DNA from: Candidatus Binatus sp.
Lineage (GTDB): Bacteria; Desulfobacterota; Binatia; Binatales; Binataceae
NCBI RefSeq assembly: GCF_049584895.1
Contig: NZ_JBAUYR010000001.1
Location: 321 to 64,320 of the forward strand
Length of the DNA: 64,000 nucleotides
Direction of reading: 5' to 3'
The translations under genes were made by a program, and so were the position numbers. The notes below the pieces were generated by a model. It worked only from the letters and a program-made list of their open reading frames with translations. It was not told the DNA's origin and made no database searches. Positions 44,562 through 54,574 of the stretch are shown here, piece by piece (within the stretch, counting starts at the first letter, position 1; every line of letters begins with the position of its first letter).

Positions 44562-45209
44562 TCACGGTTTGACGGTCAGCTTGTTTTCAACCTCGGTGAC
44601 GCCCGGCGTGCGCCAGGCTGCCGCTTCTGCTTCGCCGCGCTCGGCGAACGAGCGGACAGTGCCGGTGAGAATAACCTTGCCGTTGAGGCTCTCGACCGAA
44701 ATGCGGTTCGCGTCGATTTGCGCGCTTCGCTTGAGAGCTTCTTCGATCTTTGCTTTGACTTCCCTGGGCGATGCGCTCGGCGTGATGGCGATCGAATTGG
44801 TGATGCCACGGACGCCCGCGAGCTCTCGCGCGAGGTTCTCGGCCTCCGTTTTCGGAAAGTGGTGATTGACGGTTCCCCCCAGCGTCACCCAGCCATTTGA
44901 AACGGCGACTTTGATGCTGTCGGCGGGGATCCGGTTGTCCATCTTGAACGCCAGTCTTAAGTCCTCGGCGATGTCGGCGTCGGTCCGCTCGTGCATCAGC
45001 TCGACCTCGATCTCGTTGGCGATCGCCACTACTCCGGCGACACGTTTCGCGACACTCTCGGCGCGCCACTTTTCGCCAAGCGTCGGGACACGACCCGTCA
45101 GCGTGACGACACCGTTCTTGGCCGTTACCGCAATGTCGCGCGCGTCGACGCTGGGATCTTCCTCGAGCTCGCGTTCGACGTCGTGGCGCAATTCAAAGTC
45201 GGTCTTCAT
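44562..45209 (-). CDS. BON-domain protein (OsmY-like, three BON repeats)
   Basis: The start is at MKTDFEL (45209), with AGAGG upstream. It carries repeats of the type I.V.V.NG.VTL.G.V......aE..A....GV..V.N.I. Confidence 0.8.
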   Translation of the reverse strand: MKTDFELRHDVERELEEDPSVDARDIAVTAKNGVVTLTGRVPTLGEKWRAESVAKRVAGVVAIANEIEVELMHERTDADIAEDLRLAFKMDNRIPADSIKVAVSNGWVTLGGTVNHHFPKTEAENLARELAGVRGITNSIAITPSASPREVKAKIEEALKRSAQIDANRISVESLNGKVILTGTVRSFAERGEAEAAAWRTPGVTEVENKLTVKP

Positions 45210-45237
45210 ATGGATACCTCTGGCGTTTGTCTCGGCC

Positions 45238-45963
45238 TCATTGCGGTGCGACGTCAAGATGAAGCCGTAAGTAAAAGTTGTGGATGCCGAGGCCGCGCAA
45301 GGGAATTTCGATCTGCTGATGAGGTTCGAACATCGCGGGAATCTGCACCGGTATCGATTCCTTTTCTTCGACCACGCCTAGCTCATCGCAGACCTGGCAG
45401 GGTAAGCCGTTGTCTTGTCCGGACCCGTGGCACGCCGGGCATGGATAGATGGCGGGAGCTTCGATCATCGCGACGCCGCCGCGGGCCGCGTCCTCCGGCG
45501 TGAGCGTGAGCTGGACGTCGATCGCCTCGGCGCGCTTTTGCCGCGGCGGCCGGGCTCGAAGAAAGTTTTTCAACACCTGCTCCCGGACCAGATCGAGAGA
45601 AGGCCACGAAATCCGGGAATTGCTCAGAAGGTGGGCGGCGGTCGGAAGATCAGAATCGAGTGGCGAATTCAAATCGGGGAGCGCCCATGTGCGCCTGCTG
45701 GTCACGGCTGGTCCCGCGTCGCTCAAGCCTCGAGCGTAGTCGTCTCTTCGGTCGGGGTCCGACAAAAGGTGATATGCCTCGACGATTTCCTGGTAGAACG
45801 GAGTGCCGTTAGCCCCGACGCTGTCCGGATGGTAGTGCCGCACCAGCTCGTAGAATGCGTGTCTGAGCCCGTTTTCGTGTTCCGTCACGCGGAGGCCCAA
45901 AGTCAGGTAGTAATTTCTCTTCAGCAACGCTTTACCTCCTTCGTCGACGGCGCCTTCAATCAC
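45238..45963 (-). CDS. J-domain protein with a single CxxCxGxG zinc-finger segment (truncated DnaJ-like)
   Basis: 241 aa. The J-domain reads YYLTLGL...LVRHYHPDS...AYHLLSDPDRRDDY, with an intact HPD. The zinc module is CPACHGSGQ...CQVCDELG. There is no Gly/Phe region and no full C-terminal domains. Confidence 0.75.
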   Translation of the reverse strand: MIEGAVDEGGKALLKRNYYLTLGLRVTEHENGLRHAFYELVRHYHPDSVGANGTPFYQEIVEAYHLLSDPDRRDDYARGLSDAGPAVTSRRTWALPDLNSPLDSDLPTAAHLLSNSRISWPSLDLVREQVLKNFLRARPPRQKRAEAIDVQLTLTPEDAARGGVAMIEAPAIYPCPACHGSGQDNGLPCQVCDELGVVEEKESIPVQIPAMFEPHQQIEIPLRGLGIHNFYLRLHLDVAPQ

Positions 45964-46538: not shown

Positions 46539-47000
46539 TTACGTAGCTCGAACTTCGATCCGCTTCGCCTTTGCATCTTCGGCCTTCGGAAGAACGATGC
46601 GCAGCAGCCCATTTTTGAATTTGGCGCGGGCGCTGTCCGCGTCGATTCCCGGCGGCAGGGGAATCACCCGCGTGAATTCGGTGACACCCCTCTCCAGGCG
46701 GTAGTAGTTGCTGCCGCGCTCCTCATTCTCGAGGTTTTTCTGGCCGCGCAGGATCAGTCGATTGTCCATGACCTCGATTTGGACGTCGTTCTCGTCGAAG
46801 CCCGGAATCTCCGCGACGACTACGACTTCATCGTCTTTATCTTCGAAATCCACCGGCGGACCGAAGGCCATGCTCGACAGTTGCTGTCCATCTGTTGTGC
46901 CGTCTTTGCGCCGACGCCTCCATCGATCGAGCATGGAGTGAATGTCCTCTCGCAAGCGGCTGATCGATCGCTTCACAGGTTCAGGGATTATCTGGGCCAT
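46539..47000 (-). CDS. Hsp20 family small heat-shock protein
   Basis: 153 aa. The alpha-crystallin domain reads PPVDFEDKDDEVVVVAEIPGFDENDVQIEV....LILRG...F.R.IPLP...AKFKNGLLRIVLPK. Confidence 0.9.
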   Translation of the reverse strand: MAQIIPEPVKRSISRLREDIHSMLDRWRRRRKDGTTDGQQLSSMAFGPPVDFEDKDDEVVVVAEIPGFDENDVQIEVMDNRLILRGQKNLENEERGSNYYRLERGVTEFTRVIPLPPGIDADSARAKFKNGLLRIVLPKAEDAKAKRIEVRAT

Positions 47001-47046
47001 ATAGCTGACCTCCCGATCTGACTGTTCGGGGCGTTCCGCCCCGGTA

Positions 47047-47478
47047 TCAGCTCACCTTGACGTCGATTTTCTTTGGCTTCGCCTTTTCCGATTTCGGGAG
47101 ATTGAGCGACAACACCCCGTATTTGAGTTCCGCGTTGATTTTGTCGGTTGCGATGTCTTCGCTGATCTCGAACTGCCGGAAGAAACCAGTCAGCTCGATC
47201 TCGCGATATATCGGTTCTCCCTTGACGAGATGCTGCGCCTTGCCCTGGATAGTCAGCGTGTCCTGATCGACACGAACTTCGAGGTTCTCCTTGGGAACTC
47301 CCGGCATATCGGCCAGCAGGACCAGCGAGTTCTGAGTTTCATAGATATCCACCGGCGGAGGCGCGTAGCGCTCGGCTGCACGCGTCATCTCCGAGGAGCT
47401 GCCATTCGTCTGTGACCCATTTGATCCATTCATAGCGGGTACTGTTTTCTCTGGCATGGCTGTTATCCTCTTGCGCAC
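47047..47478 (-). CDS. Hsp20 family small heat-shock protein
   Basis: 143 aa. The sequence reads PPVDIYETQNSLVLLADMPGVPKENLEVRV....LTIQG...F.RQFE....AELKYGVLSLNLPK. Confidence 0.9.
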   Translation of the reverse strand: MRKRITAMPEKTVPAMNGSNGSQTNGSSSEMTRAAERYAPPPVDIYETQNSLVLLADMPGVPKENLEVRVDQDTLTIQGKAQHLVKGEPIYREIELTGFFRQFEISEDIATDKINAELKYGVLSLNLPKSEKAKPKKIDVKVS

Positions 47479-47511
47479 TTTTGGCGATTCAGTTGAGCGG
47501 GCTCAGGAGAC

Positions 47512-47958
47512 CTACACTTGAATCTGCCTGGGTTTTGCTTTTTCGGATTTGGGCATCGTGATGAGAATCAGCCCGTTCTTGTATTCCGCGCTGATCTTGT
47601 CCTCGTCAATTTCGACCGGCAGCGTGATGGTGCGCACAAATTTGCCGGTCGCGCGCTCCTCGCGATGGAACATTTCGGGCTTGATCTCGCTCGGCAGCCG
47701 CCTTTTTTCGCCCGAGATAGTCAGGTCGTTGCGCACGACGGTGAGGTTCAGAGACTCCGGATCGATTCCGGGAGCCACCGCCTCAACGTAGAGATTGTCC
47801 TTGTCCCCGTGAAGGTTGATGAGCGGATAGGCGCGCGCGAGCCGGCCCGGCAGAAACGCCTTGCGCAAAAACGGCTCCGTCGGGACGAAATCGTCGAACG
47901 CGCGATCTATCTCGCGATGAAGCATGTCCATTTCGTCAACTGCGGTTGATTGATTCAT
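47512..47958 (-). CDS. Hsp20 family small heat-shock protein
   Basis: 148 aa. The sequence reads PLINLHGDKDNLYVEAVAPGIDPESLNLTV....LTISGEK...F.RTITLP...AEYKNGLILITMPK. Confidence 0.9.
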   Translation of the reverse strand: MNQSTAVDEMDMLHREIDRAFDDFVPTEPFLRKAFLPGRLARAYPLINLHGDKDNLYVEAVAPGIDPESLNLTVVRNDLTISGEKRRLPSEIKPEMFHREERATGKFVRTITLPVEIDEDKISAEYKNGLILITMPKSEKAKPRQIQV

Positions 47959-48017
47959 AGATGCACTCTCCTTGTGAGCGGCTAGTCTCTAACTTGCGGT
48001 ATGGATAAGCTGGGGGG

Positions 48018-48034
48018 TAGCAAACACCGCGCCG
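48018..48034 (-). promoter_or_regulatory. candidate sigma54 (-24/-12) promoter for the hsp20-led stress array
   Basis: The minus strand reads TCGGCGCGGTGTTTGCTA. The GG and GC dinucleotides are spaced exactly as in TGGCAC-N5-TTGC. The site lies about 60 nt upstream of the first hsp20 start (47958), and a sigma54 activator gene is 2.7 kb away. Confidence 0.45.
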
Positions 48035-48239
48035 AAGGAGATCGTCGCAGTCCGTTAATCTTCGGATCGCAGAAGTACCCGCGGTCTGGGGAATTTGCTC
48101 TGCGGCGGTGGGGTAGAAGCCACACCGGCCCGCAAGTGCCAATTCGATCTGAATGGGCTGAGGAAGTCGCGGACTTCGGAGCCGCCATCGCCGCCGGCTA
48201 ATTAATCAAAGCGGCCCTCAAACACTGAGGGGAACCATC

Positions 48240-49532
48240 ATGAGTGAATTCCTGAGCAAGCTGTTCTCGTCGGATTTCATGCCGCACGGTGACTGCTATC
48301 TGTGGAGGCCGGAAATTGTCTGGTTGCACGCGACGTCCGACACGCTGATTGCGCTGTCGTATTATCTGATTCCGATCGTCCTGATTTATTTCGTCCGCAA
48401 GCGGACGGATCTTCCGTTCAACTGGATATTCGTGATGTTTGGAGTCTTCATCCTGGCGTGCGGAACTACGCACGTGATGGAAGTGGTGACGCTCTGGGAT
48501 CCCGTGTACCGGCTCTCCGGAGTCATCAAAGCTTTCACCGCAGTAGTATCAATCGCGACGGCGGTGATGCTGGTGAAGTTGATTCCTAACGCGCTGGCGC
48601 TTCCCAGCCCAACGCAGCTTCGGACGGCCAACCTCAATCTCGAAAATGAAATCAAACACCGGCGCCGGGTCGAGGAGGCGCTGCATCAGGCGCACGATGA
48701 ATCGGAAGCCAAGGTCCAGGAACGCACCGCCCAACTTGCCAGTACCAATGAAGAACTGCGCAAACAAATCGTCGAACGGCAACATGCGGAGGAGGCATTG
48801 CATACCGCGCAGAGCGGGCTTGCGCATGTGACTCGGGTCACGTCGATGGGCGAGCTGATGGCGTCGATCGCGCACGAAGTGAATCAGCCACTCTCCGCTA
48901 TCATCACCAATGGCAGCGCGGCCCAACGCTGGCTCGCGGGCGAGACACCGAACCTGGAAGAAGCCCGGACGTCGATAACCCGGATGATCAGGCAGGGAAA
49001 CCGGGCGAGTGAGTTGATTAAGGAGATTCGCGCGTTCGTAAAGAAATCTCCTCCGCAGAAGAGCCGAGTGGAAATCAACGATGTCATTCGCGAGACGGTG
49101 ACGTTAGTGAGCAGAGAGAGTCTACGGAACAACGTGGCGCTGCTAACCGATTTAGGCACCGACTTGCCGGCGCTGACTGCGGATCGTGTGCAACTGCAAC
49201 AGGTGCTGCTGAATCTGATGATGAACGGGATCGAAGCCATGAGCGCGATCGAAAACCGGTCCCGGCAACTCTCGATCAGGTCGGAGCCACAAGAGAACCC
49301 GGACGGCGTGCTGGTCGCGGTGCGGGACAGCGGCATGGGAATCAGTCCGCAGAATCTCGAGAGATTGTTCGAGACGTTCTTCACCACCAAAGCCGAAGGC
49401 ATGGGCATGGGACTCGCGATCGGACGTTCAATCGTGGAGGCGCACGGCGGCAGGCTGTGGGCCGAAGCGAATCCGGACCATGGCGCGACATTTCGATTTA
49501 TGATTCCGACTGTCGGTGAAGCCTCACCATGA
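48240..49532 (+). CDS. sensor histidine kinase with an ethylene-receptor-like N-terminal transmembrane domain
   Basis: 430 aa. The N-terminal 125 aa align with the ethylene-binding domain of plant ETR1 (see findings). This is followed by a coiled coil, the DHp motif [13 protein letters not shown] and the HATPase motifs ([23 protein letters not shown]). Confidence 0.85.
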
Positions 49533-50170
49533 GCAAGCAGGAAATGAGCAAGCCGGAATCGATCGTCTATGTAGTCGACGACGACGAGTCGGTGCGCGAG
49601 GCGATTGAAAATCTGATCCGCTCGGTGGGCCTGCACGTCGAGGCCTTCGCGTCCGCGCAGGATTTTCTCCGCAGCAAGCGGCCCGACGTTCCAGGATGCC
49701 TCGTGCTCGACATCCGGTTACCGGGCTTCAGCGGTCTCCAACTCCAGCGCAAGCTGGCCGATGCTGATATCAAGATCCCGATCGTCTTCATGACCGGTCA
49801 CGGCGACATCCCGATGACCGTGAAGGCGATGAAGGCCGGCGCGGTCGAGTTTTTGACCAAGCCGTTTCGCGATCAGGATCTGCTCGACGCGATCCAGCAG
49901 GGGATCGAGACCGATCGCTCGGCGCGGCGTGAACGAAGTTTGACCGACGATTTGCGCGAGCGTTACGAGTCGCTAACTCCGCGCGAACGGGAAGTGATGC
50001 GGCTGGTTGTCTCAGGCCTGCTCAACAAACAGATTGCCGGCGAGCTCGGGACCAGTGAAATCACGGTCAAGACTCAGCGCGGCCAGGTCATGCAAAAGAT
50101 GGGTGCGGGTTCGCTGGCGGATCTAGTCAGGATGGCGGAAAGACTCGGAGTGCGGGCACCTAAGGATTAG
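49529..50170 (+). CDS. FixJ/LuxR-type response regulator
   Basis: 213 aa with an ATGA overlap with the kinase. The receiver reads [13 protein letters not shown]...LVLDIRLPG...TGHGD...KPF. The LuxR HTH reads [36 protein letters not shown]. Confidence 0.9.
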
Positions 50171-50266
50171 AACTCAGACACCAACGTATAATAGACGCCA
50201 CAGCGCATTGCGCGGTACTTTTTGTTCATGACGAACACAAGTACACGCTCAACAACGGAGGCGGAC

Positions 50267-50653
50267 ATGAAATCCGTACAGCCAGCGTTGTTTGCGATTG
50301 TCGACGATGATGAATCGGTCCGCGACGCGGTCGGGAGCCTGTTCCGATCGATGGGATTCCAGGCCGAGCCGTTTGCAGGCGGCCAGGAGTTCCTGGGATC
50401 GCCTAAGCTGCGCGCCTTCCGGTGCTTGATCCTCGACGTGCAGATGCCGGGAATGGACGGTCTGGAACTGCAGCAGCGATTGGCCGCGGCATCTTTCCCA
50501 ATTCCGATCATCTTCATCACTGCGTATAACGACGAAAACGCGCGGTCGCGCGCGCTGCGAGGCGGCGCTGTGAGCTTCCTTACCAAGCCATTCAGCGAAG
50601 ATGCGCTGCTGGGTGCAGTGCAATCGGCGATAGAAGTCGAAGTTCTAAACTAG
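50267..50653 (+). CDS. stand-alone receiver-domain response regulator
   Basis: The start is at MKSVQPA (50267), with GGAGG upstream. It is 128 aa and reads [13 protein letters not shown]...[12 protein letters not shown]...ITAY...KPF, with no output domain. Confidence 0.8.
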
Positions 50654-50768
50654 CGGAGAGAAATTTGTGGCGACACGCGGCGCATCGAAATTGATGCGAC
50701 CCTGGAAGGATCTATGTGATTTGAGGAAATAGGTTCTCTGAACGTTCCTCACCTCGAGGTGAATTATC

Positions 50769-51968
<1,200 letters not shown>

Positions 51969-52020: not shown

Positions 52021-52153
52021 ACAGTAGTGTGGCGCGCAGGCCACAGACGTCATTTTCCGCCTGCTTTCTAAATCGTTTTGCAACAACGGTGAGCGGGTGT
52101 CGGACTATGGCATGAAATACGCAGGGCCCTGTGGATGTAAGAGGGCCTCGCTT

Positions 52154-52804
52154 GTGAAGACTGACACTGAACTGAAGCGCGACGTCGAGCGGGCGCTTGA
52201 CTGGGATCCCAGCATCGACGCCCGCGAAATAGCGGTCACGGTTAAAAACGGCGTCGTCACTCTCACGGGGCACGTATCTAGCTACGCAGAAAAATGGACC
52301 GCGGAGCGCGTGGCGAAAAATGTCGCTGGTGTAACAGCCTTGGCCAACGACATCCGGGTCAAGCTGGACAATCAACGAACCGACGCTGAGATAGCAGAAT
52401 CCGCGAGGGCGGCACTCAAGCTCGATAGCAGAATACCCGCCGACCGCGTGAAAGTGATCGTGTCGAATGGCTGGGTCACGTTGGAAGGAACGGTTGATTA
52501 CTACTACCAGAAAGCGGCGGCCGAGAGTCAGGTTCGTTACATAGTAGGGGTAAAGGGCGTCACGAACGCAATCGAGGTCGTGCCGCCGATAGCATCGCCC
52601 GCAGACGTCAAGACCAGGATCGAAGAGGCGCTCAAACGAACCGCGCAACTCGATGCCAAAAACATAACTGTCGAGACCAGGGGCAGCAAGGTAATCCTGA
52701 CCGGCACTGTACATTCATGGGCTGAACGCCACGAAGCCGAGTTGGCTGCGTGCTCGGCGCCGGGAGTCTCGGAAGTCGAAAACCATCTGATCGTTGTGAC
52801 CTGA
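52154..52804 (+). CDS. BON-domain protein (paralogue of 44562-45209)
   Basis: The GTG at 52154 (GAGGG upstream) gives MKTDTELKRDVERALDWDPSIDAREIAVTVKNGVVTLTGHV. This is collinear with the paralogue MKTDFELRHDVERELEEDPSVDARDIAVTAKNGVVTLTGRV. The ORF-track start at 52097 is an alternative. Confidence 0.8.
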   Translation: MKTDTELKRDVERALDWDPSIDAREIAVTVKNGVVTLTGHVSSYAEKWTAERVAKNVAGVTALANDIRVKLDNQRTDAEIAESARAALKLDSRIPADRVKVIVSNGWVTLEGTVDYYYQKAAAESQVRYIVGVKGVTNAIEVVPPIASPADVKTRIEEALKRTAQLDAKNITVETRGSKVILTGTVHSWAERHEAELAACSAPGVSEVENHLIVVT

Positions 52805-53382
52805 TGATACTTACAAGGCTCACTCACTACTGGTGGACATATGTAGTCCGCGGCATTCTGGCCATTGCGTTCGGCATGGTCGCCGCTGGGTGGCCTCGAT
52901 TAACCGTCGGGGCTCTGACTATTGCTTTCGGAGCATATGCCCTGGCCGATGGGTTATTTCTGTTTGGCTGCGCGATCGGCGAATGGCGTCACGTAAACGA
53001 TCCCTGGCTGATGCTCCTTGAAGGGATCATAGGAGTCCTTATCGGCGCTATCGTGACAATCTACGCGCCTGCACTCATAGGGCTAGGCCTGCCTATCTGC
53101 GTCGCCGCCTGGAGTCTCGCTGTAGGCGTGTTCGAGACTGCCACGGCTATTCTGCTCCGCCGGGAAGCGGAGAGTGAGCTATGGCTGTTGACGACTGGCA
53201 TCGCCGCGATCGCGTTTGCGGTGCTGCTGGTGTTCCTGATGGGCTTTCCGGCCGCCGAAGCATTCGTATTGCGATGGCTGATTGCAACCTATGCGATTTT
53301 CTTTGGAGTCCTATTGATGGGTTCAGGTATCAGTCTGCACGAGCTGCTGATGGACCTGGAGCTGGGAGTCATTGGAGATTGA
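52804..53382 (+). CDS. HdeD/DUF308 family membrane protein (paralogue of 39995-40606)
   Basis: The ATG overlaps the BON stop by 1 nt (TGATG). HYWWTYVVRGILAIAFGMVAAGWP is the DUF308 signature. Confidence 0.75.
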   Translation: MILTRLTHYWWTYVVRGILAIAFGMVAAGWPRLTVGALTIAFGAYALADGLFLFGCAIGEWRHVNDPWLMLLEGIIGVLIGAIVTIYAPALIGLGLPICVAAWSLAVGVFETATAILLRREAESELWLLTTGIAAIAFAVLLVFLMGFPAAEAFVLRWLIATYAIFFGVLLMGSGISLHELLMDLELGVIGD

Positions 53383-53404
53383 AGATCGGGAGGGGATCCA
53401 GAAC

Positions 53405-54574
53405 GTGTTGAGCAAAAACGATATTCAGTTCATCAAGGAATCTATCGCTCCACACACCGCGCCGGTGCTGTCTCTCTACTTCGATGCTAACCCCGCGGAA
53501 CCGACTAACCAAAAGCGCGGATGGTTGGTGCGGGTCAAGGATTCGTTGAAAGGTCTCGACCTCCCACGAGAGCTCGCGCCAAAGGTTATCAAGGAACTTG
53601 ATTTGATAATTCCTGCGGCACGCACGTATGTCGTCTTCGCAGACAATAATGATCTCATGAAGATCTACGCGCTCCAGGTGGATCTGCCGGTGGTCGACCT
53701 AGCTCACAGTCGAATCGAGGTTCGATGGGGCAAGCCCTACGTCTTCCCGCTGGTGTATGCCATCGATGAATATTCGCGGCAGGGAGTCGTATTGCTCGAC
53801 AAGGCGAAGTGGCACTTCTACACGTTGCATCTCGGCGAAATCCACGAAGTCGCCGACGCGTTCCTCGATATACCGCGGGACCACTCACGCAAGGACGAGA
53901 AAAGGCCGGCGATGCGCTTCGAGCAAGGTCTGGTCTTACGGGGCGGTGCGGAAGGCGATCACTTCGAACGACACATAGAAGCTTCAGTCCAACGCTTCTA
54001 CAAGCACAATGCAAGTGTTCTCGAGAAATTGGTCGCTGCCTGGCATATCGATGAGCTGATCTTCATGGGCCCGAACGAAGACACTCGCTTCTTTGAGAGC
54101 TACCTTCCGAAGGCGCTTCGCCAACGGGTTATAGGATACGCGCCATCGCTTCCCAAGCCGGCTCCATCGGCGGGTGAAGTGTTACAGAAGGTCGCGCCTA
54201 TCATCGAGGAGAAGATGCAGGCGACCGAACAGGCGCTTCTGGACGAGATTCGCGATGTTGGCAGATGGACAATCCCTACCGTCCTTAATGATCTGCAGAT
54301 GGGCAGGCTCCATCTGCTGGTAGCTCCCTGGAAGGTAGAAAGCGACGTGTTGCGTTGCGCTCGAGGACTGGTGGTTGAAGACCAGGCCGCGGCAAAAGCG
54401 TACTGCCCGGGACAAGCTACCCAAGAGGTAGCCTTGCGTGACGTGCTGCCTGACCTTGCGGTAGCTCACGGCGCGCGGCTCGAGTTTGTTCATGGCGAAT
54501 CTGAATCACGTTTGCTCAACGAGTTCGGCGGACTGGCCGGACTTTCACGATGGAGAAGAGTCAAGGAGGACTAA
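53405..54574 (+). CDS. bacterial eRF1-like (baeRF / VLRF1-Vms1-type) protein
   Basis: The N-terminal ...APVLSLYFDANP, the central LRGGAEGDHFERHIE.SVQRFYKHNA and the C-terminal LEFVHGE....L..FGGLAGLSRW follow the layout of bacterial eRF1/Vms1-like proteins as I recall them (pvlSvYLD ... GG....qrr.e ... GGigA.LRy). The start is uncertain: GTG at 53405 with GGGAGGGG upstream, or TTG at 53372. Confidence 0.55.
   Translation: MLSKNDIQFIKESIAPHTAPVLSLYFDANPAEPTNQKRGWLVRVKDSLKGLDLPRELAPKVIKELDLIIPAARTYVVFADNNDLMKIYALQVDLPVVDLAHSRIEVRWGKPYVFPLVYAIDEYSRQGVVLLDKAKWHFYTLHLGEIHEVADAFLDIPRDHSRKDEKRPAMRFEQGLVLRGGAEGDHFERHIEASVQRFYKHNASVLEKLVAAWHIDELIFMGPNEDTRFFESYLPKALRQRVIGYAPSLPKPAPSAGEVLQKVAPIIEEKMQATEQALLDEIRDVGRWTIPTVLNDLQMGRLHLLVAPWKVESDVLRCARGLVVEDQAAAKAYCPGQATQEVALRDVLPDLAVAHGARLEFVHGESESRLLNEFGGLAGLSRWRRVKED

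What the first reader, a model, noticed from the sequence alone, without database searches (positions are those of the whole stretch)
48240..48614. Histidine kinase sensor domain matching the plant ethylene-binding domain, including the Cu(I)-ligand Cys and His
Residues about 30-125 read [54 protein letters not shown]...[21 protein letters not shown]. They align, from my memory of Arabidopsis ETR1, with [53 protein letters not shown]...AKVLTAVVSCATALMLVHIIP.

The Asp, Tyr and Ile-Pro of helix 1 are conserved. So are the Ile, Cys and His of helix 2 (ETR1 D25, Y32, I35, P36, I62, C65, H69).

Unlike plant receptors there is no GAF domain. The three-helix sensor connects through a coiled coil straight to the DHp histidine (SIAHEVNQP).

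Ethylene-binding-domain proteins are known in cyanobacteria and predicted in other bacteria, but their outputs are largely unknown. Here the kinase sits between two stress operons, next to a FixJ-type regulator.
Basis: partly seen in the sequence, partly recalled or inferred. Interest (0 to 1): 0.7.

Follow-up and report, generated by a model that had tools for sequence, protein, structure and literature searches.

The report
Bacterial ethylene-receptor-type histidine kinase
This gene from an uncultured soil bacterium encodes a sensor kinase whose membrane domain is a true relative of the plant ethylene-binding domain with every known binding residue intact, but such bacterial receptors are already known and common, so it is a good new example, not a new kind of thing.

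Summary
ORF 48240..49532 (+, 430 aa) matches Pfam ETR1_N (PF25487) over the whole model (E 2e-42). A profile-profile alignment to plant receptors (99.7% probability, E 1.9e-25) puts D34/Y41/I44/P45/I71/C74/H78 on ETR1 D25/Y32/I35/P36/I62/C65/H69, and K97 on K91.

The domain is 55% identical to AzoEtr1 of Azospirillum, which was shown in 2025 to bind 14C-ethylene. There is no GAF or PAS domain. The model has three membrane helices, then one continuous helix (residues 124-233) running into the phospho-His H212. In relatives the linker length changes in steps of seven residues.

The kinase core is FixL-like. Its stop codon overlaps the start of a FixJ-like regulator. A receiver-only protein and a receiver-less sigma-54 activator follow. 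This four-gene cassette recurs in other phyla, often near BON, Hsp20, Hsp70 or DUF308 genes.

The family is large (about 7,000 clusters at 50% identity), and about 50 of the 120 closest relatives share this minimal architecture.

Verdict: a new member of a known kind, most likely a Cu(I)-dependent ethylene sensor. Binding, the sign of regulation and the target genes are untested.

The parts
48240..49532 (+). EBD-histidine kinase gene (430 aa)
   Evidence: ORF. Pfam finds ETR1_N, HisKA and HATPase_c. The RBS-like GAGGGG lies about 8 nt upstream of the ATG.
48315..48602 (+). Ethylene-binding domain (residues 26-121), Pfam ETR1_N
   Evidence: E 2.1e-42, full model length; hhalign to plant receptors, probability 99.7%.
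48276..48329 (+). Motif specific to bacterial EBDs, on the periplasmic side: F13-x-P-H16-G-x-C19-Y-x-W22 ... L29-H30
   Evidence: Among 137 relatives, H16 is kept in 137, C19 in 137 and H30 in 134. The motif is present in AzoEtr1, Acaryochloris and Pseudanabaena. It is absent in plant ETR1 and in the Deinococcus and Chondrinema homologues.
48309..48401 (+). Membrane helix 1 (residues 24-54), carrying D34, Y41, I44 and P45
   Evidence: AF2 helix 24-54, hydropathy peak, residue alignment.
48423..48488 (+). Membrane helix 2 (residues 62-83), carrying I71, C74 (48459-48461) and H78 (48471-48473), the predicted Cu(I) ligands
48507..48596 (+). Membrane helix 3 (residues 90-119), carrying K97 (48528-48530), equivalent to ETR1 K91
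   Evidence: The role of K91 is described in PMC10266040.
48609..48845 (+). Coiled-coil linker (residues 124-202), continuous with DHp helix 1
   Evidence: AF2 gives a single helix 124-233 with pLDDT 91-95 over residues 130-180. It has a heptad pattern, and the P116-to-H212 spacing is 96, 103 or 89 in 48 of 54 relatives.
48846..49046 (+). DHp / HisKA domain (residues 203-269), phospho-acceptor H212 at 48873-48875
   Evidence: H212 is invariant in alignment A3.
49182..49511 (+). Catalytic ATP-binding domain (residues 315-424)
   Evidence: The N, G1, F and G2 box residues are invariant. The best Foldseek hit is the FixL-derived YF1 structure 4gcz at 39% identity.
49529..50170 (+). FixJ-like response regulator (REC + GerE/LuxR HTH). 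Its start overlaps the kinase stop codon (ATGA).
   Evidence: It is conserved next to the kinase in L001, L002, L004 and L086-L089.
50222..50653 (+). Receiver-only response regulator
   Evidence: It is conserved in every EBD-HK cassette examined, including L003, which lacks the LuxR-type regulator.
50769..51968 (+). Sigma-54 activator (AAA+ plus Fis-type HTH) without a receiver domain
   Evidence: It is conserved in the cassette.
48019..48034 (-). Candidate sigma-54 -24/-12 element, CGGCGCGGTGTTTGCT, about 60 nt upstream of hsp20c
   Evidence: A near-identical element (CGGCGCGTTGTTTGCT) lies 56 nt upstream of a DUF308 gene in L003. The window-wide count of such motifs is at chance level, so this is tentative.
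46539..47958 (-). Three tandem Hsp20 genes transcribed divergently from the kinase (candidate output genes)
   Evidence: Synteny is kept in L001, L002 and L004. Hsp20 triplets and BON genes lie near the cassette in L089.

Best explanation
The gene encodes a homodimeric, membrane-embedded two-component sensor kinase. Its input domain is a Cu(I)-dependent ethylene-binding domain of the ETR1, SynEtr1 and AzoEtr1 family.

Shown by the sequence and the searches:
- The protein has three membrane helices with the N-terminus outside and the C-terminus inside.
- All seven ETR1 ethylene-binding residues are present, along with the D34-K97 pair.
- One uninterrupted helix runs from membrane helix 3 to the phospho-His H212.
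- The kinase core is intact and FixL-like.
- A FixJ-like regulator is translationally coupled to the kinase, followed by a receiver-only protein and a receiver-less sigma-54 activator.

Inferred from homology:
- Cu(I) is held by C74 and H78, with D34 assisting. Ethylene, or a closely similar small alkene, binds this copper inside the membrane.
- The change passes through D34-K97 to helix 3 and along the coiled coil. This shifts the balance between kinase and phosphatase activity at H212.
- Phosphate flows to the two neighbouring receivers. These alter transcription through the LuxR-type HTH and possibly through the sigma-54 activator.
- The most likely targets are the adjacent chaperone and BON/DUF308 stress genes.

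Whether ethylene raises or lowers kinase activity is unknown.
For: - Domain identity is supported.
- The seven residues and K97 are each kept in at least 135 of 137 relatives at 50% or lower mutual identity.
- The EBD is 55% identical to AzoEtr1. Residues 1-130 of AzoEtr1 bind 14C-ethylene saturably (PMC11819568).
- The roles of D25 and K91 are described in PMC10266040.
- The catalytic boxes are invariant, and the core is FixL-like.
- The kinase and regulator genes overlap by ATGA.
- The four-gene cassette is conserved with kinases of only 56-60% identity in other phyla. BON, DUF308 and HSP70 (L086/L087) or BON and HSP20 (L089) lie within 6 kb in two of those three contexts; L088 has none.
Against: - No binding, copper or phosphotransfer data exist for this protein or for any relative that lacks PAS and GAF.
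- No solved EBD structure exists for comparison.
- The model's confidence in the membrane domain is only moderate (pLDDT 66-84) and is low for residues 1-20.
- The link to the stress genes rests on proximity alone. L003 and L088 carry the cassette without Hsp20 genes.
- The candidate sigma-54 element is not statistically supported window-wide.
- The same HK-RR-REC-activator cassette also occurs with a DUF4118 sensor. The outputs therefore belong to the cassette and are not specific to ethylene sensing.
Confidence: 0.75

Rival explanations
1. The domain keeps the ETR1 fold and the copper site, but in this soil bacterium it reports something other than ethylene. Candidates are copper availability, the redox state of the Cu/Cys site (oxidants, O2), or another small ligand that binds Cu(I), such as CO, other alkenes or alkynes, or isocyanides.
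For: - The neighbouring genes are oxidative and protein-damage stress genes: peroxiredoxin, DsbA-like thioredoxin, DJ-1/PfpI, Hsp20 and DnaJ-like.
- An extra invariant His/Cys/His set (H16, C19, H30) sits on the periplasmic side and is absent from plant receptors.
- From my own knowledge, plant receptors also bind other alkenes, CO and isocyanides with lower affinity.
Against: - All residues that alanine scanning found necessary for ethylene binding are invariant.
- AzoEtr1 carries the same extra N-terminal motif and binds ethylene (PMC11819568).
- Soil ethylene reaches concentrations well above receptor thresholds (PMC11819568, Introduction).
Confidence: 0.15
2. The membrane domain is only an anchor and dimerisation module. 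The kinase is controlled by something else, such as the receiver-only protein, the chaperone load or membrane state, and the conserved residues are structural.
For: There is no cytoplasmic sensor domain. The same cassette works with a different membrane domain, DUF4118.
Against: An anchor role does not explain near-absolute conservation of polar residues buried in the membrane (D34, C74, H78, K97) across about 137 diverged relatives. It also does not explain a linker kept in heptad register.
Confidence: 0.05

Closest known systems
AzoEtr1 of Azospirillum brasilense Sp7 (PMC11819568)
   Same: - The ethylene-binding domain is 55% identical, including the PHGxCxxW...LH N-terminal motif and all seven binding residues.
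- The transmitter has the same H-box type (AHE..QPL).
- A downstream response regulator gene overlaps the kinase stop codon.
   Different: - AzoEtr1 has a PAS domain of about 120 residues between the sensor and the kinase, where this protein has 45 residues of coiled coil.
- AzoEtr1 is followed only by a 135-aa receiver-only protein, with no LuxR-type regulator or sigma-54 activator.
- The transmitter domains are only 29% identical.
SynEtr1 (Slr1212/UirS/PixA) of Synechocystis and other cyanobacterial EBD kinases
   Same: The N-terminal ethylene-binding domain has a single N-terminal Cys (PMC6682694). Signalling goes through a histidine kinase to a response regulator. Cyanobacterial homologues found here are 46-55% identical in the EBD.
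   Different: According to PMC6682694 and PMC11819568, SynEtr1 carries a light-sensing cyanobacteriochrome GAF domain. This protein has no second sensor.
Plant ETR1/ERS1 (subfamily 1 ethylene receptors)
   Same: The domains are homologous (41% identity; hhalign 99.7%). They share the same Cu ligands, the same D-K pair and the same three-helix topology, followed by a histidine-kinase-type transmitter.
   Different: - Plant receptors have a GAF domain after the sensor, two N-terminal Cys residues (C4, C6) and no PHGxC motif.
- They signal mainly through CTR1 and EIN2, not by phosphotransfer (PMC11819568, Introduction).
- This protein has no GAF domain and sits in a classical bacterial two-component operon.
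FixL/FixJ two-component system
   Same: The transmitter core is most similar to FixL (NCBIfam top hit; 39% identity to the FixL-derived 4gcz). The partner regulator's best hit is FixJ.
   Different: There is no haem-PAS oxygen sensor. Both scores fall below the equivalog cut-offs (204 against 850 for FixL, 217.5 against 255 for FixJ). The proteins are FixL/J-like in transmitter and regulator class only.
DUF4118-sensor kinases on the same HK / FixJ-like RR / REC / sigma-54 activator cassette (Acidobacteriota, Verrucomicrobiota)
   Same: The kinase core is 45-58% identical, the S-helix linker motif is the same, and the downstream gene order is the same.
   Different: The membrane sensor is DUF4118, not the ethylene-binding domain.

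Membership tests
Ethylene-binding domain family (Pfam ETR1_N, PF25487) | Profile match above the curated threshold over the full domain | tested here: met
   143.7 bits against a cut-off of 27; model positions 2-97 of 97. hhalign to the plant profile gives 99.7%.
Ethylene-binding domain family (Pfam ETR1_N, PF25487) | Three membrane helices, N-terminus outside, C-terminus cytoplasmic | tested here: met
   AF2 helices 24-54, 62-83 and 90-119. Three hydropathy peaks, and positive charge on loop 1 and after helix 3.
Ethylene-binding domain family (Pfam ETR1_N, PF25487) | Cu(I) ligands Cys65 and His69 in helix 2 | tested here: met
   C74 and H78 align to C65 and H69. They are kept in 137 and 136 of 137 relatives.
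Ethylene-binding domain family (Pfam ETR1_N, PF25487) | The seven residues required for ethylene binding in AtETR1 (D25, Y32, I35, P36, I62, C65, H69) | tested here: met
   D34, Y41, I44, P45, I71, C74 and H78 are all present.
Ethylene-binding domain family (Pfam ETR1_N, PF25487) | Asp25-Lys91 polar pair linking the binding site to helix 3 (PMC10266040) | tested here: met
   D34 and K97 are present. K97 is kept in 135 of 137 relatives.
Ethylene-binding domain family (Pfam ETR1_N, PF25487) | Binds Cu(I) | not testable with these tools
   Needs purified protein, for example a BCA competition assay as in PMC10266040.
Ethylene-binding domain family (Pfam ETR1_N, PF25487) | Saturable, high-affinity ethylene binding | not testable with these tools
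   Needs a 14C-ethylene assay. It has been shown for the 55%-identical AzoEtr1 domain (PMC11819568).
Ethylene-binding domain family (Pfam ETR1_N, PF25487) | Disulfide-linked homodimer through N-terminal Cys | tested here: inconclusive
   A single invariant Cys (C19) lies before helix 1, as noted for cyanobacterial receptors (PMC6682694). Dimerisation was not tested.
Plant-type ethylene receptor (ETR1/ERS1 architecture) | GAF domain between the sensor and the kinase | tested here: not met
   No GAF hit. Residues 124-233 form one helix.
Bacterial ethylene-receptor two-component system (AzoEtr1 / SynEtr1 type) | EBD fused to a catalytically intact histidine kinase, with an adjacent co-oriented response regulator | tested here: met
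   H212 and the N, G1, F and G2 boxes are invariant. The regulator start overlaps the kinase stop codon.
Bacterial ethylene-receptor two-component system (AzoEtr1 / SynEtr1 type) | Intervening PAS (AzoEtr1) or cyanobacteriochrome GAF (SynEtr1) domain | tested here: not met
   The domain is absent. About 50 of the 120 closest relatives also lack it, so it is not a required feature of bacterial EBD kinases.
FixL / FixJ | Equivalog-level match and a haem-binding PAS sensor | tested here: not met
   FixL scores 204 bits against a cut-off of 850, matching the transmitter only. FixJ scores 217.5 against 255. No PAS domain is found.

The most novel reading that the evidence does not exclude
In many uncultured soil bacteria (Binatia, Acidobacteriota and others), ethylene acts as an anticipatory stress cue, for example for waterlogged, diffusion-limited soil. 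A minimal EBD kinase feeds a conserved cassette of a FixJ-like regulator, a free-standing receiver and a receiver-less sigma-54 activator. The receiver acts on the activator in trans, like a split NtrC. The cassette switches on chaperone, BON and DUF308 protection genes. In addition, the invariant periplasmic H16-x2-C19...H30 motif, found in bacterial EBDs but not in plant ones, is a built-in copper-capture site. It would replace the RAN1 and chaperone delivery route that plants use.
Probability: 0.2. Interest if true: 0.6.

Novelty: new member of a known kind. Interest (0 to 1): 0.35.

Why it matters
The outputs of bacterial ethylene receptors have been worked out in only two organisms, and no experimental structure of any ethylene-binding domain was found.

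This protein is about the simplest receptor possible: sensor, one continuous helix, then kinase. That could make it, or a cultured relative, a convenient subject for structural work and for in vitro tests of how ethylene binding changes kinase activity.

The repeated pairing of the cassette with a sigma-54 activator and with chaperone and BON genes across phyla gives a concrete, testable hypothesis for what ethylene sensing controls in soil bacteria that are not known to associate with plants.

It also shows that current annotation hides the family. Sources name these proteins 'C4-dicarboxylate-specific histidine kinase' or 'sensor histidine kinase'. Yet about 7,000 clusters at 50% identity carry the domain, against 1,221 sequences analysed in 2023 (PMC10266040).

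Tried and rejected
- **Solved structures.** A PDB sequence search with residues 1-147 gave no hit at E<=1. Foldseek of the full model against the PDB returned only histidine-kinase cores and nothing for the membrane domain. No structural comparison of the EBD was possible.
- **Model coordinates.** The tool does not expose them. I could not measure whether H16, C19 and H30 lie near C74 and H78.
- **Sigma-54 promoter scan.** TGGCAC-N5-TTGCW with up to 2 mismatches gave 26 matches against 27.6 expected. Enrichment as an argument is rejected. Only the position and the recurrence of one element in L003 remain as a lead.
- **RNA thermometer upstream of hsp20c.** There is no Rfam (ROSE) match, and the fold is only modestly better than shuffles (z = -2.0).
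- **Orthology of the regulators to AzoRR.** Both regulators are only 27-28% identical to it, which is uninformative.
- **Papers not held.** Lacey & Binder 2016 and Wang et al. 2006 could not be read. I could not check whether the PAS-less and GAF-less architecture has been described explicitly.
- **FixL and FixJ orthologues.** Rejected, because both scores are below the equivalog cut-offs and there is no haem-PAS domain.

Full report
**1. What is at the coordinates**

Pfam finds three domains:
- ETR1_N (PF25487) on residues 26-121, covering model positions 2-97 of 97, at 143.7 bits against a gathering score of 27, E 2.1e-42.
- HisKA on residues 203-269.
- HATPase_c on residues 315-424.

No GAF or PAS domain is found. 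The weak UPF0242 and CREPT hits fall on the helical linker and lie below their cut-offs, so I treat them as coiled-coil noise. The window holds only this one copy of the domain.

**2. The alignment test**

I did not want to rely on a remembered ETR1 sequence, so I used it only as a search query. That search returned database proteins named 'ethylene receptor'. P0121 is a Brassicaceae ETR1 fragment, 98% identical to the recalled sequence and with the same numbering.

I also recovered AzoEtr1, the experimentally validated Azospirillum receptor. It is the 525-aa ORF L081:2971-4548 on plasmid p1 of strain Sp7, and its length matches PMC11819568. A cyanobacterial homologue came from Acaryochloris.

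Three alignments agree:
- MAFFT of seven sequences.
- BLASTP to P0121, 41% identity, E 8e-23.
- hhalign of 54 bacterial relatives against 25 plant, liverwort and charophyte receptors, probability 99.7%, E 1.9e-25, 128 columns.

All place window D34, Y41, I44, P45, I71, C74 and H78 on ETR1 D25, Y32, I35, P36, I62, C65 and H69. These are the seven residues that the literature treats as required for ethylene binding (PMC11819568, PMC6682694). K97 aligns with ETR1 K91, the partner of D25 in the proposed signal relay (PMC10266040).

**3. Conservation and family size**

A search of residues 1-130 against 1.84 billion cluster representatives found 9,127 proteins at E<=1e-3, 6,984 at E<=1e-10 and 2,354 at E<=1e-30. 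I aligned the 134 best full-domain hits together with the window protein, AzoEtr1 and Acaryochloris, giving 137 counted sequences. The seven residues and K97 are each kept in 135-137 of them.

The same alignment shows a second set of invariant residues before helix 1: F13-x-P15-H16-G17-x-C19-Y20-x-W22, then L29-H30. H16 is kept in 137 of 137, C19 in 137 and H30 in 134. AzoEtr1 and the cyanobacterial proteins have this motif. Plant ETR1, a Deinococcus homologue and a divergent Chondrinema homologue do not. The single Cys has been noted before as a possible dimer disulfide (PMC6682694). I found no discussion of the two histidines in the papers I could read.

**4. Architecture and coupling**

An AlphaFold2 model built on 54 same-architecture relatives (mean pLDDT 80.3) gives these elements:
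- Helices 24-54, 62-83 and 90-119.
- A single helix 124-233 that contains H212.
- A second DHp helix 239-269.
- An alpha/beta catalytic domain.

Hydropathy and charge distribution fit an N-out, C-in topology.

The linker has a heptad pattern. The distance from the invariant P116 to H212 is 96 residues in 35 of 54 relatives, 103 in 12 and 89 in one. These lengths differ by exact multiples of seven. That is what one expects if the sensor drives the kinase through a rigid coiled coil.

Compared with AzoEtr1, 45 residues of helix (146-190) replace the roughly 121 residues that hold its PAS domain. The kinase boxes are invariant. The core is closest to FixL, which is the NCBIfam top hit at 204 bits against a cut-off of 850. 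It is 39% identical to the FixL-derived structure 4gcz.

**5. Is the minimal layout unusual?**

It is not. All 120 closest full-length relatives carry PF25487:
- About 50 have only ETR1_N, HisKA and HATPase_c (417-461 aa). They come from Candidatus Binatus, a 'Burkholderiales' MAG, Vicinamibacterales and Dormibacteraeota.
- About 65 have PAS domains.
- One has a GAF domain.

Their source names are generic ('C4-dicarboxylate-specific signal transduction histidine kinase', 'sensor histidine kinase').

**6. Organism**

The nearest genomic loci are soil MAGs labelled 'uncultured delta proteobacterium' (L001-L004, 77-96% identity). The nearest named proteins are from Candidatus Binataceae and Binatus. 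The window is most likely from a member of the Binataceae. The one paper that mentions both Binatota and ethylene concerns di-iron monooxygenases.

**7. Context and likely output**

Downstream of the kinase lie:
- A REC+GerE regulator whose ATG overlaps the kinase stop codon (ATGA). Its best hit is FixJ at 217.5 bits against 255.
- A receiver-only protein.
- A sigma-54 activator with AAA+ and HTH domains but no receiver.

Upstream on the other strand are three Hsp20 genes, two DnaJ-like genes, a BON protein and a peroxiredoxin. Further out are DJ-1/PfpI, a DsbA-like thioredoxin, an aldo-keto reductase and DUF308. Downstream are a second BON gene, DUF308 and a baeRF-family protein.

The whole block is kept in L001, L002 and L004. 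In L003 (kinase 77% identical), only DUF308, the kinase, the receiver-only protein, the activator and the baeRF protein remain.

The four-gene cassette of EBD kinase, REC-GerE, REC and activator also recurs with kinases only 56-60% identical:
- A Vicinamibacterales MAG and two metagenome contigs all carry it.
- BON, DUF308 and HSP70 lie next to it in one case.
- BON and three HSP20 genes lie next to it in another.

The same chassis also occurs with a DUF4118 membrane sensor in place of the EBD. The sensor is therefore a swappable input to a conserved output module.

A sigma-54-like element, CGGCGCGGTGTTTGCT, lies about 60 nt upstream of hsp20c and is invariant in the four close loci. A near-identical element lies 56 nt upstream of the DUF308 gene in L003. 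Window-wide, such motifs occur at chance frequency, so this is a lead only.

**8. Mechanism**

The most likely mechanism is given under Best explanation. Domain identity, topology, the helical connection, kinase competence and operon structure are shown. Copper binding, ethylene binding, the relay through D34-K97, phosphotransfer to the two receivers and control of the stress genes are inferred. The sign of regulation is unknown.

**9. Comparison with known systems and novelty**

This is a member of the ethylene-binding-domain family and of the bacterial ethylene-receptor two-component class (AzoEtr1, SynEtr1). It is not a plant-type receptor, because it has no GAF domain. It is not FixL/FixJ.

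The new elements are modest:
- The lineage (Binataceae).
- The minimal architecture, seen clearly with its heptad-locked linker.
- The conserved cassette with a sigma-54 activator and chaperone and BON neighbours.
- The invariant H-x2-C...H motif.

I rate it a new member of a known kind, with interest 0.35.

Noticed in passing
window 49529-51968; L086/L087, L088, L089, L003: A receiver-only protein is always followed by a sigma-54 activator that lacks its own receiver domain and has a GAYTGA loop variant. The pair looks like a split NtrC-type regulator. It is conserved even where the LuxR-type regulator is missing (L003).
   Followed up: partly
window 48019-48034 (-); L003 7470-7485 (-): A sigma-54-like -24/-12 element, CGGCGCG-N4-TTTGCT, lies 56-60 nt upstream of hsp20c in the window and of a DUF308 gene in L003. 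The element is 15 of 16 bases identical although the downstream genes differ. Further TGGCAC-type elements lie 50-70 nt upstream of the baeRF gene and an unknown gene in L003.
   Followed up: partly
window 47950-48060 (-): The Shine-Dalgarno sequence AAGGAGA of hsp20c can pair with an upstream UCUCCUU (MFE -31 kcal/mol, z = -2.0). This is a possible RNA-thermometer-like hairpin. There is no Rfam ROSE match, and it overlaps the sigma-54-like element, so the two readings compete.
   Followed up: partly
window 48276-48329 (residues 13-30 of the kinase): The invariant F-x-P-H-G-x-C-Y-x-W...L-H motif before helix 1 is as conserved as the ethylene-binding residues. It is found in the closest bacterial relatives, including AzoEtr1 and cyanobacterial EBDs, but is absent from plant receptors and from the more divergent Deinococcus and Chondrinema homologues.
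   Followed up: partly
window 48060-48200; L003 7790-7960: Blocks upstream of the kinase start are conserved between the window and the 77% orthologue locus: CTTCGGATCGCA, TGGAATTYGCTC, GGTGGGGTRGAWGCCACAC (a near-palindrome) and CGCCGCCGGCTA. They may be the operon's promoter or operator.
   Followed up: no
window 52097-52160: The BON gene's listed GTG start at 52097 is probably too far upstream. The paralogue at 44562-45257 and its relatives begin at 'MKTD...'. An in-frame GTG encoding that 'KTD' start lies near 52152, preceded by AAGAGGG. A weak TGGCAT-N5-ACGCA element (TGGCAC in L001) lies about 30 nt before it.
   Followed up: no
L001 and L002 (two contigs of MAG MFD00964.bin.2.270): The same 14-gene block occurs on two contigs of one MAG, with the proteins mostly 86-99% identical to those of the window. 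This reflects either a strain mixture in the bin or a recent duplication.
   Followed up: no
L004 9050-9062; L001 10661-10667; L002 11467-11486; L004 10916-10954: tblastn matches to the kinase (L004) and to the sigma-54 activator (L001, L002, L004) are split into two pieces. This suggests frameshifts or assembly errors in those MAGs. The window's copies are intact.
   Followed up: no
window 53372-54574; L003 13172-14317: A bacterial eRF1-like protein (baeRF_family10) lies downstream of the cassette in both the window and L003.
   Followed up: no
L005, L011, L012: Kinases with the same transmitter, linker motif and downstream cassette carry DUF4118 (with or without GAF) in place of the ethylene-binding domain. 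This is an example of sensor swapping on a fixed output module.
   Followed up: yes
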